DNA of 64,000 bases from Octopus sinensis. Its lineage: Eukaryota. A program made the translations under genes and the position numbers. Below, one piece after another: positions 4,230 through 43,964 of the stretch. The notes beneath the pieces were generated by a model that saw nothing but the letters and a program-made list of their open reading frames with translations, was not told the origin of the DNA and searched no databases. The stretch lies in NCBI RefSeq assembly GCF_006345805.1, contig NC_043014.1, forward strand, positions 32,674,001 through 32,738,000. Reading direction: 5' to 3'. How positions within the stretch are numbered: position 1 is the stretch's first letter; the number at the start of each line of letters is the position of its first letter.

Positions 4230-4926
4230 CATGCATATATATCTGTGTATATCTTCTATTTTTTATCTTTTACTTGTTTCAAACTGTGGCCATGCTGGGG
4301 TGCTGCCCTGAAGAATCTTTAGTCAGATACTTATTTCATCAGACCCTTTTGCCGAACTGCTTAGTTTCAGGGCAAACATACTAATGGCTGTCAAGTGGTG
4401 GGGGTACAAACACACACACACACACATACACACATCATCGTTATTATGTTAAACCGTTGTATGTTCAAATTTGGCCAAATGTGTTTTTTTCCAATATTTA
4501 TTTTTGCTTGCAATAGCCAGTTCTTTTGGTCAAACTATCATATCTCCAGCTGCTCCAGATGCCAAAATATCAAAACTTGTCAAAGTGTAGTACAATGGTT
4601 TTGCTATGGAATGGAGAAACTATTTTTACATTTTCTGAAAAAGCAACATTTTTGATTTACAAAATTTTTGCATAATAGCAACAATATATATCTACAATGG
4701 GCTTCTTTCAGTTTCCATATATATATAGGCAATATTAAATCTCTGAGCTAGAAGTAAACAGTATGGAATCGTAAAACATAATTGTGGCGGCCCCATAAAG
4801 GACGATGCTTCTGTTGTTTTTAGCCCCATGAGGACATCTCTTCCAGCTGGCTAATGACACACTATCTTTGTCCAATTAGTATTTGTGAGAGGAAATCATT
4901 GTTCCCATCTCAAGCTTTACGTGATA

Positions 4927-4971
4927 CACACAGACCCAGGTTTCTGATTAGCAACCCGTCATCAGTGTGTG
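4927..4971 (-). ncRNA. hammerhead ribozyme motif (type I, stem II degenerate)
   Basis: Minus strand reads CACACA-CTGATGA-CGGGTTGCTAATCA-GAAA-CCTGGG-TC-TGTGTG; 6-bp stem I CACACA/TGTGTG, GUC cleavage triplet. Confidence 0.7.
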
Positions 4972-5090
4972 ATAATCACCAGTTAGTGATGAAAACTCAT
5001 TCCACCTGCAAATTACTATATGCTTTTTCCAGAGACAAACTTTTGCTGATATCAAAAAAGGAGAGATAAGCAATATTAAATCTATTAAAT

Positions 5091-5322
5091 AGGGCAGCAA
5101 GCTGGCAGAAACGTTAGCACGCCGGGCGAAATGCGTAGCCGTATTTCATCAGCCATTATGTTCTGAGTTCAAATTCCGCCGAGGTCGACTTTCCCTTTCA
5201 TCCTTTCGGGGTCGATAAATTAAGTACCAGTTACACACTGGGGTCGATATAATCGACTTAACCCGTTTGTCTGTCCTTGTTTGTACTCTCTGTGTTTAGC
5301 CCCTTGTGGGTAGTAAAGAAAC
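5091..5322 (+). mobile_element. tRNA-related SINE, working family B (Tx1-like tail)
   Basis: AGCTGGCAGAAACGTTAGC head, GAGTTCAAATTCC B box, CCTTTCATCCTTTCGGGGTCGATAAATTAAGTACCAG domain; 14-bp TSD AATATTAAATCTAT at 5072-5085 and 5327-5340. Confidence 0.9.
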
Positions 5323-5648
5323 AAAAAATATTAAATCTATGAGCAAGAAGTAGACAGAGAATGATTATTTACCCTTGCAAATACTAATTGGACACAGATA
5401 GTGTGTCATTAGCCAGCTGAAGATGTCCTCCTGGTGCTAAAGGCAACAGTACCATCTTCCTCAATGGGACAGCCACATTTTGTTGGCAATTATATTTTAC
5501 AATTCCATAATGCTACTGTTTACTTTTGGCTCATAGATTTAATATTGCTTACTTCTCCTTTTTCGAGATCGGTGACAGTTTATCACTGGAATAAACATAT
5601 AGTATTTTGTATGTGGAATGAGTTTTCCTCACTAGCTTGTGGTTATCA

Positions 5649-5689
5649 CACACTGATGATGAGTTACTATTCAGAAACCCAGGTCTGTG
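5649..5689 (+). ncRNA. hammerhead ribozyme motif (type I)
   Basis: CACA-CTGATGA-TGAGT(TACT)ATTCA-GAAA-CCCAGG-TC-TGTG: intact CUGANGA/GAAA/GUC core, 5-bp stem II, 4-bp stem I. Confidence 0.78.
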
Positions 5690-5906
5690 AGTATCATGTA
5701 AGGCTAGAGATGGGAAGGATGAATACCCCTCGAAAATACTAATTGGACACAGACAGTGTGTCATTAGTCAGCTGGAGGAGATGTCCACCTAGGTCTAAAA
5801 ACAACAGTAGCATTGTCCTCTATGGGACCATCACATTTAGTTGGCAATTATATATATATATATACACATATATATATACACGCACATGTATGCACACACA
5901 CACCTT

Positions 5907-8027
5907 GCATTTCAAATTAGTAACAATTTTTTCATTTTATTTAAAAATTACTTGTTGAAATTCAACAAAATTTTCACAGAAGGATGGCAACAGTTATAGG
6001 TGAGTGGTTTGCAAAATACGTGAGACTCTGTAAAACAACACAGAAACTACAGCCATTTACCAAATTTACATAAACTTTCATTGCTTCAAATTATTAGTGA
6101 AGTGTAATTAAAACTCATGCAAACAAGAAAATACCAATTTAATTGTTTGATGCACGTTCTGAAAAGAAGACATACTGTCATAAATATGAAAGAAATAGAA
6201 ATAAACAAATAAAGTGTTCAAAAATAATAGGTGAGTTGGTTAGTAAGGGATATATGAGCGTTTGTTTGAAATAAGTTGGAAAAGGTGCTGGTCCATGGGA
6301 CATGCTAATTTCTGGATCTCCTCTGATGTTATACCACGAGATACATCCACTATTGCCTACCACAGTTCATCCTTGATCCTAAATTGGCATCCATTCTCAT
6401 TAACTTAGTGCTTAGTGCTTAGTTTTCTATTGGGTTTTAGTAAGGGAAACAGGGAGGCCACTTCATCTTTTGAGGTCCACAGAAGCCTAATTGTTGCAGA
6501 TACTCTGTAGTTTTCTTTATTGAGTGTAAGGATGCATTATCTTGCATGAATATTATAGTTGTCTTAAAGGTGGCCCTTTGCTTTTTTAACCAAGGTTGAA
6601 GGTGCTCCCTGAGAAAGGCTATGTAAGCATCCGCAGTCATTTTAACATCGTCAGGCACTTTCCAAGGACCATACATAATATTGGGTTGTCTGGAAAGTTC
6701 GTGCTGATTTATAGTAGCTTACCTTTTGACTTATTTTAGAACATGGTTGAGTCCATAAAATAGGATTTGACTACACCTCCATTTAGAGCACAGTTTAAGC
6801 TATCTTTTCATGGAAGAAGGTTTATGCTCCTATAACCTGTGTTAATTCTGTAACCCTTTAAAATGGAAGATAAGAAAGTTCATTTTCGGCTCTTGATGCT
6901 TTGGGAACCAGACAAAAATTGCTGCAACTCGGCTGAGATGTGTTACCCCACCCTCCATATTCATCAGATATTGCTCTTTCAGATTTCCACTTATTCAGGT
7001 CTCTGCAGAATAGTCTTAATGGTAAAAATTTCAATTCCTTGGATGACATAAAAAGATACCTTGATGAATTCTTTGCCATGAAACCACCTCAATTCTGGGA
7101 AGCAGGTATTTTCAAGTTAAAAGAAAGATGGAGACGCATTGTGCAACAAAATGGTTCATATTTGGTTGATTAAAAATGTAATGGCATGTATTTATTAACC
7201 TTTTGCTTTCCTTTAAAAATCGACATGAACTTTCCGGACAACCCAATATTTCTAATATTATCTGTCCAATTCATGATGCCACCTCCCCTTTGTTGGTGTC
7301 TCAAGCAGTGATGACGATCTCATCCATTCACAACCCATCTCTTTCTCCAACCATCTGGTTCATGAAGGGTAGCACAAGTTTCATCTGTAAACAAAACTTT
7401 TAAAAAGTAATTCTCCCTGTTATCTTCTGCTCATTCCAGATGATTTTGTATGTGTATTTTCTTTAAAAGAGGGAGGCCTTTTAACTGATGTCACTGGTTT
7501 ACCAACCTTTCTCAGAAGATAACATTGGGTAGTTCTGGACACAGTTGTTTTGATAATGTGCTTGAAAAGTTCTCCACTTGTAAAACCTGGTTTCTTTATA
7601 GCGTCAGGCTGTAATCCATGACAAAGAACATTGAGAAGCAGCCCTTGACTGACCTTTGCTATCTTCATAGGATCTGTAACAAATTTTTTCACAGTTTGGT
7701 GATATTTTCCAATCATTTAAAATATTTCTAATGTTAATTTACTTTTTACAAGTTCAGAAGTAATAACAGATTTCCCTGAAGCAATTAAGTCATATTTACA
7801 ACCCATAATTACATGATTATCAGACAACTCATTAATAATTTCATACACTGAAAGTTCATGGAAATCATGCAAATGGCTGTGGTTTGTTTAAACTTGCTCA
7901 AACTTCACGTTTTTTACATACTGCAAACATATAGCTGTTGCCATCATTCTCTGCAAATTTCGTTGAACTCAAACAAATAGTTTTTAAATAAAATAAACAA
8001 TGTTATGTCATTAATCATTTGAAATGC
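5907..8027 (-). mobile_element. degenerate Tc1-like DNA transposon, DD37E (TRT-type), ~190-bp TIRs
   Basis: Diverged inverted repeats at ~5907-6098 and ~7831-8027; minus-strand KVLFTDETCATLHEPDGW and FMQDNASLH...WPPCFPY*NPIEN (37 residues between D and E); N-terminal region in ORF 7420..7716. Confidence 0.85.
6681..7246 (+). mobile_element. internally deleted mariner element nested in the DD37E transposon
   Basis: ~30-bp TIRs TTGGGTTGTCYGGAAAGTTCRTG with TA on both sides; N-term MEDKKVHFRLLML joined to C-term LPHPPYSSDIALSDFHLFRSLQN...ERWRRIVQQNGSYLVD. Confidence 0.93.
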
Positions 8028-10141: not shown

Positions 10142-11025
10142 CAGGGTGTAGTGAATATGTTGTCTAAATTATGCAAAAATGAAAATAAAACTGACATCTC
10201 ATTTTAAAAGATATATTTACCAAAATTGGATGAAAATATTTTGAAATACTAAAGAGTAAATTTATTCAAGGAAATCGCCTTTGGCTTCAAACATGGCCTC
10301 CAGACGACTTTGGAATCTCCTGCAAATCTTTTGGATGGTCTCCTTGTTTAAGTTGGTGAATACTGCCAAAATCCTTGCCTTCAGTTCATCTTTGGAGATA
10401 CTAGAAGTTTTCTTGATCTCTTGCTCAATTGAGCCCCACACATAATAACTAAGGGGGTTGCAGTCTGGGGAGGTAGGTGGCCAGATGTTAGGGGTAATGT
10501 ATCGCAGAAATTATCTGACAGTCGTGACTGGGTTCTCCTGCTTGTGTGGCATGGTGCAGATTCCTGTTGCCAGACATAGGATCTTCCAGCAGTCACCCTC
10601 TTGATCCAGGGCAGCACTACCTCCTCCATGCACTTGATGTAGGCCTCCATGTTGAGTCTGAAGCCGTGTGGGAAAATGAATGGTGGAATTATGTCACCAT
10701 CACTAGTGATCATTCCAAGCACCATGATGCTGACTGGGCATTTTATTTTTATCACTCTCAGTACATGTTTTGGGGACACAGCATGCCAACGGTTGTTCTG
10801 AGTGTTCGCCATTTGTTCCTGTTGGAGCTTTCGGTGTGAACGCCAAGCAGTACAGCTAGTCATTTCCAAATTTCTGGCAGAGTGAATTGCATCATCCTGC
10901 TGTTTTTCCTGCAGACAGTGCCCAACTGACCCTACTATACTATGTAGTTGATAAAATCAAAAACAAACAATGTGCATGCATGAAAGAAAAAATATAAATG
11001 GCAACAGTTTAGCTTTCACACCCTG
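10142..11025 (-). mobile_element. internally deleted Tc1/mariner element, DD37D (maT-type)
   Basis: CAGGGTGT termini in inverted orientation; ORF 10381..10869 has YVWQQESAPCHTSRRTQ, then after a frameshift ITPNIWPPTSPDCNPLSYY; reconstructed spacing is 37. Confidence 0.82.
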
Positions 11026-16363: not shown

Positions 16364-17329
16364 CTTGTATAAATATACAAATACATTATTAATGAAAATA
16401 TTAGTGGCTGTCCAAAACCCACATACACACATATATACACATACATATACATAATGTATATATATATGTATAATATATATATACACATATGTATATATAT
16501 GTGTGTGTGTGTGTGTGTGTGCACATATACATATATACTTACATATACATATATACGTACATATGTGTATGCATGAGCGCATCTGTGTGTATGTATCTAT
16601 AATTGTTGTCTTCATCATCATTTAATGTCTATTTTCCATTCAGGAATGTGATGAACTATATACATATATGTATCTATGTATGCATGTATGCAAGTATGCA
16701 AGTACGTACATATTTATACATGTATATATGTATTTATGCATGTATGCAAGTACGTACGTATGTATGTATGCATGTATGTATGCATGTATGTATGTATGTA
16801 TGCATAATCGTCGTCTTCATCATTATTTTATATGTTTTGTATGCTGGTATGGATTGAACTGTTTGACAAGAACTGATGAACCAGGGGAACTGTGTTGACG
16901 TACAGTGTCTTCTTTCACTCACACAAATGTGACTGGATGGCCTTCCTAACACTAACTAAATTACAAAGAGCTGTGAGTGGTTTTTAGTAGCACCAGCACT
17001 AGTGAGGTTACCTAGAAACTCACAAAACAAGAACTCTTAACTGAATGGGTGGGGGTGTAATATTGAGGCAAGTGGCTTTTATGAAAAGTTAAATTATGAC
17101 AGCAGGACAACATATATATAATTATAATTACACACACATATACACATAATAGTGTGTGTGAGTGTGTGTGTAAACTTGGAACCTAATGGATAACCAATTA
17201 TAGTTCTTAGCTTACCTATTCATTTTGATCACCAGTGAACTAAACCCCTCATATTCTTTGTCATTGCCCTTCAGAGCACTTAATATCAATTTCACTCAAT
17301 ATGGACAAACAATATCTTGGCATATCATT

Positions 17330-17832
17330 CAAGGACATACCCATTCCATCTCAAAAAATTTTCCCCTACTTTTACTTAGTAAAACAAATGAATTTATCAG
17401 GATGAAATGGAGGGCCTTCTTCCATGATAATAGACACAAACTCAATGATAGTAACATCAATAAATATAGCCTTATATCCTTCAAAAATCCTCCTCACAAC
17501 CCTCAGCCGGATAAATTCAACCTTAATATGATTAAGAACTTAAAATTCTCTAAATGTAAATCTTCATTCCAAAAACAGCTTTTGAGAACAATCAAATGGA
17601 ATACTTCATCACCCAAAATGCACATCTCTGATAAAACTGAAAATATATATTCACTTACTATTGAGGAATACATTGGCTTTATTAGAAATAGATGTAATTC
17701 TAACTGCCAGAAAGACACTCAGCTCCTTTGATGATAAGCTTTGGTGCTGAGCTACTCTCAATAATAATAGTAGCAATTTCTTTGATATAACCATGGGCTC
17801 CTCTGATTCCTCTCAGGTGACAGATCTGGTCA
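17330..17832 (+). mobile_element. Penelope-like retroelement RT relic (Naiad-like motifs), internally deleted
   Basis: EFIRMKWRAFF...KNPP...FQKQL...SDKTENIY in ORF 17225..17731, then FFDITMGSSDSSQVTDLV. Confidence 0.78.
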
Positions 17833-42544: not shown

Positions 42545-43635
42545 TCACCTGCAGTTTCTCAGAAGAAAGATAATGTGGTAAGACTAGGAATTTGGGGATT
42601 GGTTTGTTGCACATATGGCTAAATGTTCACTCTGTCTAGTTCTGGAGTCTTGTATTTGTTGCCTATGAAAGTGAGTCTGGTTCTTAAAGTAAGTTTCAAT
42701 TTGTCCAATGTAATCTTCATTACAATCATTACATTTAATAGCACGAATTAAGTTTTGATGAGCTAGCAGAGTAATTTTTACAGTGAAGATACGTTCTGAT
42801 TTGAATTTATAGGATGTATCTTCTATGATAGTGGAGGCACATGGCCTAGTGGTGAGAGCAGTGGATTCATGGTCGAGGGATTGTGGGTTCGAATCTCAGA
42901 CCAGGTGATGTGTGTGTTTATGAGCAAAACACCTAAGCTCCACATGGCTCCAGCAGAAGGTAATGGTGAACTTCTGCTGACTCTTTCGCCACTACTTTCT
43001 CTCACTCTTTCCTCCTGCATCTTGCAGCTCATCTGCGACAGACTGGCATCCCGTCCAGGTGGAGAGCCTATACACCAAGGAAACTGGGAAACTGGCCCTT
43101 ATGAGCCAGGCATGGCTCGAGAAGGAACAAAGAAACAATCTTCTATGAAACTGATGTGGTTTCTATAGTTGGGGTGACCACACTCTTTGACTATTGGAGT
43201 TGTAGTTTTGGTAGGTAATTTGGCACTGACAATTTCTTTAAGGATTTTTGTTGTCTTTGGCTTTTAATTATTCTGAATGTGTTGAGTGTTTTTCTCATTC
43301 TTGGATTTTGCTTTAATAAGGGGATGTCTTGATGCATAATGTTGTATGTTTCTGTATTTCTTAGGGGTATATCTAAGAAGGTAGAGTATTTGGTGTACTG
43401 GAATTGCTATTTGTTCTTCATAATTCATAAAAGTCAATTGACTTGGCACATTCTGTCTCATTATCAATTAACCTAGTCAAATATTGTCTATTATGTAGTA
43501 GTTGTTTTAACTCTTGGAGTATTTTATTCTGAGTTTCAAAATTCTAAATGATAGAACCTATTCTCCAAGCTAGCTTAAATGGTATATTTATTTTGGTAAT
43601 TTTTGTGAGGCAAGTGTATAACATTATGAAGTATT
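42545..43635 (-). mobile_element. Penelope-like element relic: thumb/linker and GIY-YIG endonuclease
   Basis: KINIPF.LA.RI, KRQQKSLKKL, IVKECGHPN, then QNLIRAIKCNDCNEDYIGQI...FHRQQIQDSRTRQSEHLAICA. Confidence 0.82.
42831..43137 (+). mobile_element. tRNA-derived SINE, working family C
   Basis: TGGCCTAGTGG A box, GGTTCGAATCT B box, AAC-rich tail; 11-bp TSD ATCTTCTATGA at 42818-42828 / 43138-43148. Confidence 0.9.
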
Positions 43636-43964
43636 GTTTTGAATTCATCACTTTGTTGCATTTGAGGAAAACAGTTAGCTGCATTTATAACCATGCTTAT
43701 CCATGTGCAAGTATATTATACTTTTCAAAGGTTGATGAAATGAAATGCTGGGTTTCATTTAATATTGCATGAAGTTGCACAGTCAGTGTTTCTATTTGTT
43801 CCAGCATATTAAATGATTTGTCTACCACACCCATTACTGAAACAATCATAAGGTACCATACAGTGGAATTGAAGCTGGAACAACATAGTCATAAAGACAC
43901 TAAGCAAAGTCTATAGCCACATTACCATGTCTTTGCCTTATATATATATATGTATATATGTGAC

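What the first reader, a model, noticed from the sequence alone, without database searches (positions are those of the whole stretch)
4729..5850. Hammerhead-bearing ~350-bp tandem repeat in divergent arms: candidate cephalopod retrozyme or ORF-less Penelope unit
Seen: units of 341 and 355 bp. The two units that cover the site each carry a type I hammerhead (4927-4971 minus, 5649-5689 plus), the arms point away from each other, and there is no adjacent RT ORF. Stem III reads GAAACCTGGGTC in one copy and GAAACCCAGGTC in the other, the two CpG-deamination products of the palindrome ACCCGGGT. Established: palindromic stem III marks dimer-active hammerheads in Penelope pLTRs, and tandem hammerhead repeats of a few hundred nt (non-LTR retrozymes) give circular RNAs in other metazoans. 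Inference: a self-cleaving, possibly circularising RNA family mobilised by Penelope RT.
Basis: partly seen in the sequence, partly recalled or inferred. Interest (0 to 1): 0.72.

Follow-up and report, generated by a model that had tools for sequence, protein, structure and literature searches.

The report
Decayed retrozyme copy, Penelope-type insertion
This is one aged copy of a widespread, protein-free jumping repeat whose 358-base unit carries a predicted self-cutting RNA motif; its back-to-back shape and paired ends indicate that Penelope-type retrotransposon enzymes likely pasted it in, a known kind of element that this scan has met many times in such genomes.

Summary
In detail: two divergent arms of a 358-nt repeat, one type I hammerhead each, a SINE inserted later. 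The locus is one decayed insertion (arms 9-11% from consensus) of a dispersed ORF-less family with a young sister family (95-98% identical copies, up to three tandem units). 609 places in the genome match the hammerhead pattern, 0 its reversed control. Stems I, II and the stem III palindrome change compensatorily between subfamilies. Insertions carry the Penelope (PLE) footprint: (TA)n flanks, inverted 5'-truncated arm, two fixed 3' ends about 48 nt apart; 33 of 34 scorable two-armed loci pair one long with one short end. Arms read through the ribozyme cut site, so the template was a circle or an uncut multimer. No PLE was found that owns this unit as its pLTR. This locus has one hammerhead per strand and cannot release a monomer. 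Cleavage, expression and circles are untested. Verdict: new member of animal non-LTR retrozymes, already proposed in print to be non-autonomous PLEs; no cephalopod case found in my searches. The scan reported like elements before (27 notes, at least 4 genomes).

The parts
4717..4727 (.). (TA)n tract, left flank (likely target site)
   Evidence: sequence
4728..5085 (-). left arm, main part; ends at the family's long 3' end (unit position about 65-68); 9.2% from consensus
4920..4981 (-). type I hammerhead with extended stem I; core intact; predicted cut after 4933; one G-A mismatch in stem II; stem III palindrome with a CG>TG change
5072..5085 (+). 14-nt target-site duplication of the SINE, first copy
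   Evidence: identical to 5327-5340
5086..5326 (+). abundant SINE-like repeat inserted later into the left arm (SINE label recalled, not tested)
   Evidence: more than 10 further copies in the window; flanked by the duplication
5327..5358 (-). 5' stub of the left arm (unit positions 32-62), including the second copy of the duplication
5359..5853 (+). right arm, 1.38 units from unit position 230 to the family's short 3' end (about position 11-19); 11.1% from consensus
5637..5698 (+). type I hammerhead with extended stem I; core intact; predicted cut after 5685; stem III palindrome broken by a CG>CA change
5850..5881 (.). (TA)n tract, right flank (likely target site)

Best explanation
The locus is a single, aged insertion of an ORF-less 358-nt hammerhead repeat family (an animal non-LTR retrozyme), likely copied into a (TA)n site by a Penelope-like element's reverse transcriptase-endonuclease acting in trans. 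Shown: dispersed family, fixed period, covarying hammerhead, two fixed 3' ends, divergent arms, read-through of the cut site. Inferred mechanism: a PLE protein cuts both strands of the TA tract; reverse transcription starts at two internal sites of the repeat RNA, about 176 and 224 nt past the ribozyme cut site, one site per target strand; both cDNAs run backwards through the cut site (template a circle or an uncut multimer), stop at variable points and join 5' to 5'. A SINE landed in the left arm afterwards and both arms decayed. With one hammerhead per strand this copy would not release a unit-length RNA; young tandem sister copies could.
For: 2749 first-look candidates for the unit, 40 scored, 83 matches; 609 exact matches to the hammerhead pattern, 0 for the reversed control. 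Period 358, GC 44%. On 87 hammerheads: 90.6% of cells paired, 12 of 20 pairs with two-sided changes, 0 of 500 shuffles as high; stem I 16:50 GC 42/AU 34, stem II 25:36 GC 51/AU 30, palindrome 43:46 CG 43/UG 22/UA 17; slid controls score 0.006-0.128 against 0.250. Circular fold z -6.4 (family A consensus), -8.7 (young unit), -1.5 and -2.4 (this locus). Of 90 loci: 44 divergent two-armed, 42 one-armed, 4 complex, 0 purely convergent; 33 long+short, 1 long+long, 0 short+short, 10 with a broken end. A young autonomous PLE family here has two 3' ends too (17 short, 15 long) and TA flanks. Inverted 5'-truncated copy, one-sided tail and microsatellite bias are described PLE features (PMC8557442 passages); a PLE protein extends both strands and starts at two internal sites that bound the tail (PMC11167929 abstract and passages). 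5' ends do not pile up at the cut site: 3 of 130 arms, P=0.82; 10 arms cross it twice. In the young family the two arms of a locus differ by 1.95% (35 pairs) against 3.87% between loci (3200 pairs). Intact 780-883-aa PLE frames exist in the genome.
Against: No autonomous partner with a homologous 3' end was found, so the mobilising enzyme is inferred from the footprint alone. Rfam has no hit. The covariation comes largely from a few subfamily changes, not many independent events, and related sequences can beat the shuffle control. Loci were picked as best or motif-bearing matches, which inflates arm length and cut-site crossing (107 of 130). In vitro, PLE start sites did not differ between strands and hammerhead cleavage was not needed for insertion (PMC11167929 passages), so strict long+short pairing and a circular template are not established by that work. 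In a vertebrate survey only 1 of 9 predicted dimers cleaved (bioRxiv 10.64898/2026.07.22.740005, results read).
Confidence: 0.8

Rival explanations
1. The unit is the ordinary 3' end (pLTR) of an autonomous PLE that was not sampled or is extinct, and all copies are 5'-truncated PLE insertions.
For: The footprint is the PLE footprint. At L113/L143 a near-complete PLE runs directly into a unit on the same strand. Searches score only the best 40 candidates and flanks were 1.5 kb.
Against: Units follow one another head to tail at 352-358 nt, up to three times, so what precedes a unit is another unit, not an ORF. Among PLE loci L031-L070, L143-L162 and L163-L192 (90 loci, partly the same places) the unit occurs at four places, none as a shared 3' end. 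At L143 the PLE part is 99-100% identical to its family, whose other 39 scored copies end in their own hammerhead, while the unit part is at most 84% like any other copy: two events. The two autonomous families examined carry different, minimal-type hammerheads.
Confidence: 0.08
2. It is a non-autonomous PLE spread from linear read-through transcripts of tandem master copies; the hammerhead is kept for processing, but no circular RNA takes part.
For: Tandem masters exist (L098). Uncut RNA was the dominant PLE substrate in vitro (PMC11167929 passage). In the L098 trimer the 3'-most unit differs from the other two at 7 sites while those two are identical, not what one pass round one circle would give unless later mutation or local duplication is added.
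Against: Strong rod-like self-pairing of the circularised unit matches retrozyme circRNAs of mussel, 350-390 nt (PMC7229834 section 14). Loci with two or more same-strand hammerheads are a minority (10 of 130 arms cross the site twice), yet read-through of the site is common.
Confidence: 0.35
3. The repeat is mobilised by a LINE or spreads as DNA (satellite or MITE-like), the inverted arms being chance or recombination products.
For: PMC7229834 leaves LINEs open as partners (passage).
Against: No poly(A) tail or terminal inverted repeats; two fixed 3' ends with variable 5' ends; 44 divergent against 0 purely convergent loci; 33 of 34 long+short.
Confidence: 0.05

Closest known systems
Animal non-LTR retrozymes (Cervera and de la Pena 2020, PMC7229834: abstract, section 14 and passages read; supplement not readable)
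   Same: ORF-less unit of about 350 nt, GC 44%, canonical-size type I hammerhead (stem I 6 bp, stem II 4 bp, 2-bp stem III with palindromic loop), highly self-paired, tandem copies, PLEs in the same genome; mussel units are 350-390 bp.
   Different: Mostly one- or two-armed insertions of 1-1.7 units rather than arrays; mismatch (C-A or U-U) at the base of stem II; no RNA or cleavage data here; the passages I read do not describe inverted arms or paired ends; cephalopods are not mentioned in the main text.
Retrozymes as non-autonomous PLEs (Li, Clavereau, Pollet, bioRxiv 10.64898/2026.07.22.740005; parts 1-3 of 5 read)
   Same: Proposes exactly this PLE origin and dependence; many families are mostly monomers.
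   Different: Evidence there is co-occurrence and pLTR homology in vertebrates; here no pLTR homology was found and the link rests on insertion anatomy. This locus fails their 'active' criterion of two consecutive hammerhead units.
EN+ Penelope-like elements and their pLTR hammerheads (PMC4209133 parts 1-2 read; PMC8557442 passages; PMC11167929 abstract and passages)
   Same: Partial tandem, inverted 5'-truncated arm, one-sided tail, microsatellite target, palindromic stem III, pairs of hammerheads 100-700 bp apart on opposite strands.
   Different: No ORF; period of one short unit; tail about 48 nt rather than 30-40; canonical rather than minimal hammerhead.

Membership tests
Animal non-LTR retrozyme | Type I hammerhead with conserved core and stems | tested here: met
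   core conserved, compensatory changes in stems I-III; Rfam models do not detect it
Animal non-LTR retrozyme | Non-coding unit of 150-450 bp, GC below 50% | tested here: met
   358 and 352 nt, GC 44% and 43%; no PLE protein match within units
Animal non-LTR retrozyme | Head-to-tail copies with two or more consecutive hammerheads (family level) | tested here: met
   trimer at L098, two same-strand motifs at L129, L028, L073; 10 of 130 arms cross the site twice
Animal non-LTR retrozyme | Two consecutive hammerhead units at this locus ('active' criterion of Li et al.) | tested here: not met
   one hammerhead per strand
Animal non-LTR retrozyme | Highly self-paired circular fold | tested here: met
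   z -6.4 and -8.7 against 60 dinucleotide shuffles; decayed at this locus; prediction only
Animal non-LTR retrozyme | Self-cleavage in vitro | not testable with these tools
   needs transcription assay
Animal non-LTR retrozyme | Expressed as unit-length linear and circular RNA | tested here: inconclusive
   only assembled contigs of runs guessed to be RNA were offered
Non-autonomous PLE | PLE insertion footprint: partial tandem, inverted 5'-truncated arm, one-sided tail, microsatellite target | tested here: met
   same two-end pattern in an autonomous family
Non-autonomous PLE | 3' homology to an autonomous PLE | tested here: inconclusive
   none among the PLE loci sampled; sampling limited to best-scoring candidates
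pLTR of an autonomous PLE | Unit lies in register downstream of an RT-GIY-YIG ORF in many copies | tested here: not met
   two same-strand upstream ORFs in 102 unit loci: L141 has the PLE's own end and a TA tract between, L113 is a one-off junction of parts of unequal age

The most novel reading that the evidence does not exclude
The two-armed insertions record one Penelope enzyme complex priming both target strands at two different fixed sites of one small circular ribozyme RNA, one site per strand (33 of 34 loci), and the young 352-nt sister family is still being made as such circles; it would give a minimal natural substrate to test whether retrozyme circles are PLE templates and why PLE insertions have a tail at one end only.
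Probability: 0.4. Interest if true: 0.55.

Novelty: new member of a known kind. Interest (0 to 1): 0.36.

Why it matters
Animal retrozymes are proposed to hitch-hike on Penelope-like elements, mainly on co-occurrence and pLTR homology. Here the link can be read from insertion ends, and the strict pairing of one long with one short end adds a constraint that the one in vitro PLE study did not show. The locus itself is a decayed copy; the value lies in the young sister family and the young intact PLEs of the same genome, which make cleavage, circle and trans-mobilisation tests easy. The scan has noted the same kind of element many times, so this is a further family, not a first sighting.

Tried and rejected
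Rfam scans: nothing at gathering, no hammerhead at E<=10. Autonomous partner: GIY-YIG search gave 147 matches; the unit next to the 775-aa ORF at L057 lies on the opposite strand beyond a TA tract, and that PLE has its own 3' motif; the L113/L143 junction was considered as a template switch and rejected on unequal ages; L141, L137 and L080 are co-insertions separated by microsatellite; L097/L128, L024 and L016 were judged from coordinates only. Expression: no RNA holder listed on record; 19 of 24 rows hold part of the young family, 14 of them guessed RNA; contigs of four such runs cover the young unit without any joint; two guessed-RNA runs give next to no cover on this locus's arms; none of this is evidence either way. 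Cleaved linear monomer as template: no pile-up of 5' ends at the cut site. SINE as a specific lander in units: adjacent in 3 of 99 loci at different positions: not specific. Pfam on four window ORFs: no family. Print searches for octopus/cephalopod with hammerhead, retrozyme, pLTR, Penelope listed no description of such a cephalopod family; the supplement of PMC7229834 could not be read and preprint supplements are closed, so species lists there may include one; Repbase/Dfam entries could not be checked.

Full report
Observation. The region holds two arms of one repeat pointing away from each other, 83% complementary over 307 nt. Against a 358-nt family consensus the left arm (minus) runs from unit position 32 at 5357 through one full unit to position about 68 at 4725, and the right arm (plus) from position 230 at 5359 to position 11 at 5853; they are 9.2% and 11.1% from consensus. 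A 241-nt abundant repeat, which I recall as a SINE type but did not test, interrupts the left arm and is flanked by an exact 14-nt duplication, so it came later. Both outer ends run into (TA)n. Each arm has one hammerhead with a complete core. Rfam detects neither.

Family. The right unit gave 2749 first-look candidates in the own genome, 40 scored, best other copies 79-87% identical; 37 units are 5-13% from consensus outside CpG sites. A gapped hammerhead pattern matches 609 places, its reversed control none. A sister family, about 75% identical to the first, is young (copies 95-98% alike, 2158 candidates), has a 352-nt period and reaches three tandem units. A third, intermediate set appears.

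Ribozyme. On 87 of the 122 extracted hammerheads (ungapped, not truncated, few duplicates) 90.6% of cells pair, 12 of 20 pairs change on both sides, and no shuffle of 500 reaches the covariation score; slid structures score far lower. The clear cases are subfamily changes: stem I next to the core A-U/G-C, stem II G-C/A-U, and the inner palindrome pair C-G/U-G/U-A. That last pair can hardly form inside one molecule (it would close a 2-nt loop), so its compensation favours selection for a dimer helix, but it is about one lineage event. The base of stem II is mostly a C-A or U-U mismatch, as in one axolotl family (PMC7229834 passage). Invertebrate retrozyme hammerheads mostly cut as monomers (same paper), so 'dimer-only' is not settled. 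The circularised consensus and a young unit fold far better than shuffles (z -6.4, -8.7); this locus's units have decayed (z -1.5, -2.4).

Insertion anatomy. Of 90 non-redundant loci, 44 are divergent two-armed, 42 one-armed, 4 complex, none purely convergent. 3' ends fall at two sites, about 176 and 224 nt past the cut site. One-armed loci use both equally (19 long, 18 short, 5 broken); two-armed loci pair them: 33 long+short, 1 long+long, 0 short+short, 10 with a broken end; by hand, 33 or more of 34 at even odds is about 2e-9. The window's locus is long (left) + short (right). 5' ends are scattered, with no excess at the cut site (3 of 130, P=0.82), and arms cross the site (107 of 130, inflated by selection; 10 twice), which rules out a cleaved linear monomer as template. 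In the young family the two arms of a locus are about half as divergent as arms of different loci (1.95% against 3.87%), as for one event. Partial tandems, an inverted 5'-truncated copy, a one-sided tail and microsatellite bias are described for PLEs (PMC8557442 passages). Purified PLE protein cuts and extends both strands and starts at two internal RNA sites that bound the tail; hammerhead cleavage was dispensable and start sites did not differ by strand (PMC11167929 abstract and passages). A young autonomous PLE family of this genome shows two 3' ends and TA flanks as well.

Partner. The genome holds many GIY-YIG PLE frames, several intact at 780-883 aa. None sampled has the unit as its 3' end. 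In 102 unit loci (duplicates included) PLE fragments occur at eight places; those inspected are neighbours in shared TA tracts, and the one direct junction joins a young PLE to an old unit.

RNA. Only contigs of runs guessed to be RNA were available; they cannot show expression or circles.

Comparison and verdict. The family meets the sequence-level features of animal non-LTR retrozymes (PMC7229834) and the insertion features of non-autonomous PLEs; that retrozymes are non-autonomous PLE derivatives is proposed in print (bioRxiv 10.64898/2026.07.22.740005), and circles as PLE templates were proposed in 2014 (PMC4209133). My searches listed no cephalopod case, supplements unseen. Earlier notes of this scan describe like families with the same footprint; none matched this sequence. 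The locus is a decayed copy of a new member of a known kind. Interest 0.36; the paired-end rule and the young sister family are what deserve follow-up.

Noticed in passing
window 42572-43654 (minus): Broken PLE remnant with RT C-terminal and GIY-YIG similarity (tblastn), 37 kb from the finding.
   Followed up: partly
L164-L192 (e.g. G000:C9:88991484-88994866): Very young autonomous-type PLE family (99-100% identical) whose 3' UTR holds a hammerhead with a U3-A8 core, a palindromic stem III and two fixed 3' ends about 35 nt apart.
   Followed up: partly
L051-L054, L056 (e.g. G000:C1:207473500-207480000): PLE family with open frames of 780-781 aa in many near-identical copies; my motif scan found no hammerhead in these loci.
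   Followed up: partly
L143:1617-4872 (G000:C1, about 9.22 Mb): Near-complete young PLE whose own 3' end is cut off inside its hammerhead and joined directly to an old retrozyme unit; likely nested insertion plus deletion.
   Followed up: yes
L098:1500-2620 (G000:C8, about 82.985 Mb): Three tandem units of the young sister family; only the 3'-most hammerhead has a fully intact core and cut triplet.
   Followed up: partly
L118 and L142, about position 1500: Short hammerhead-like motifs with the same stem III palindrome as the young family but no similarity to the unit: possibly a further family.
   Followed up: no
G000:C1:141926002-141953129: Tandem array of about 20 U6 snRNA matches at 1.1-2.5 kb spacing.
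   Followed up: no
window 6840-7170 and 10381-10956: Stretches that resemble Tc1/mariner transposase remnants (recalled motifs; Pfam found nothing for the second, the first was not scanned).
   Followed up: no
window 17204-17731 (plus): 175-aa frame that resembles the N-terminal part of a PLE protein (recalled resemblance; no Pfam family, no tblastn hit at 1e-4).
   Followed up: partly
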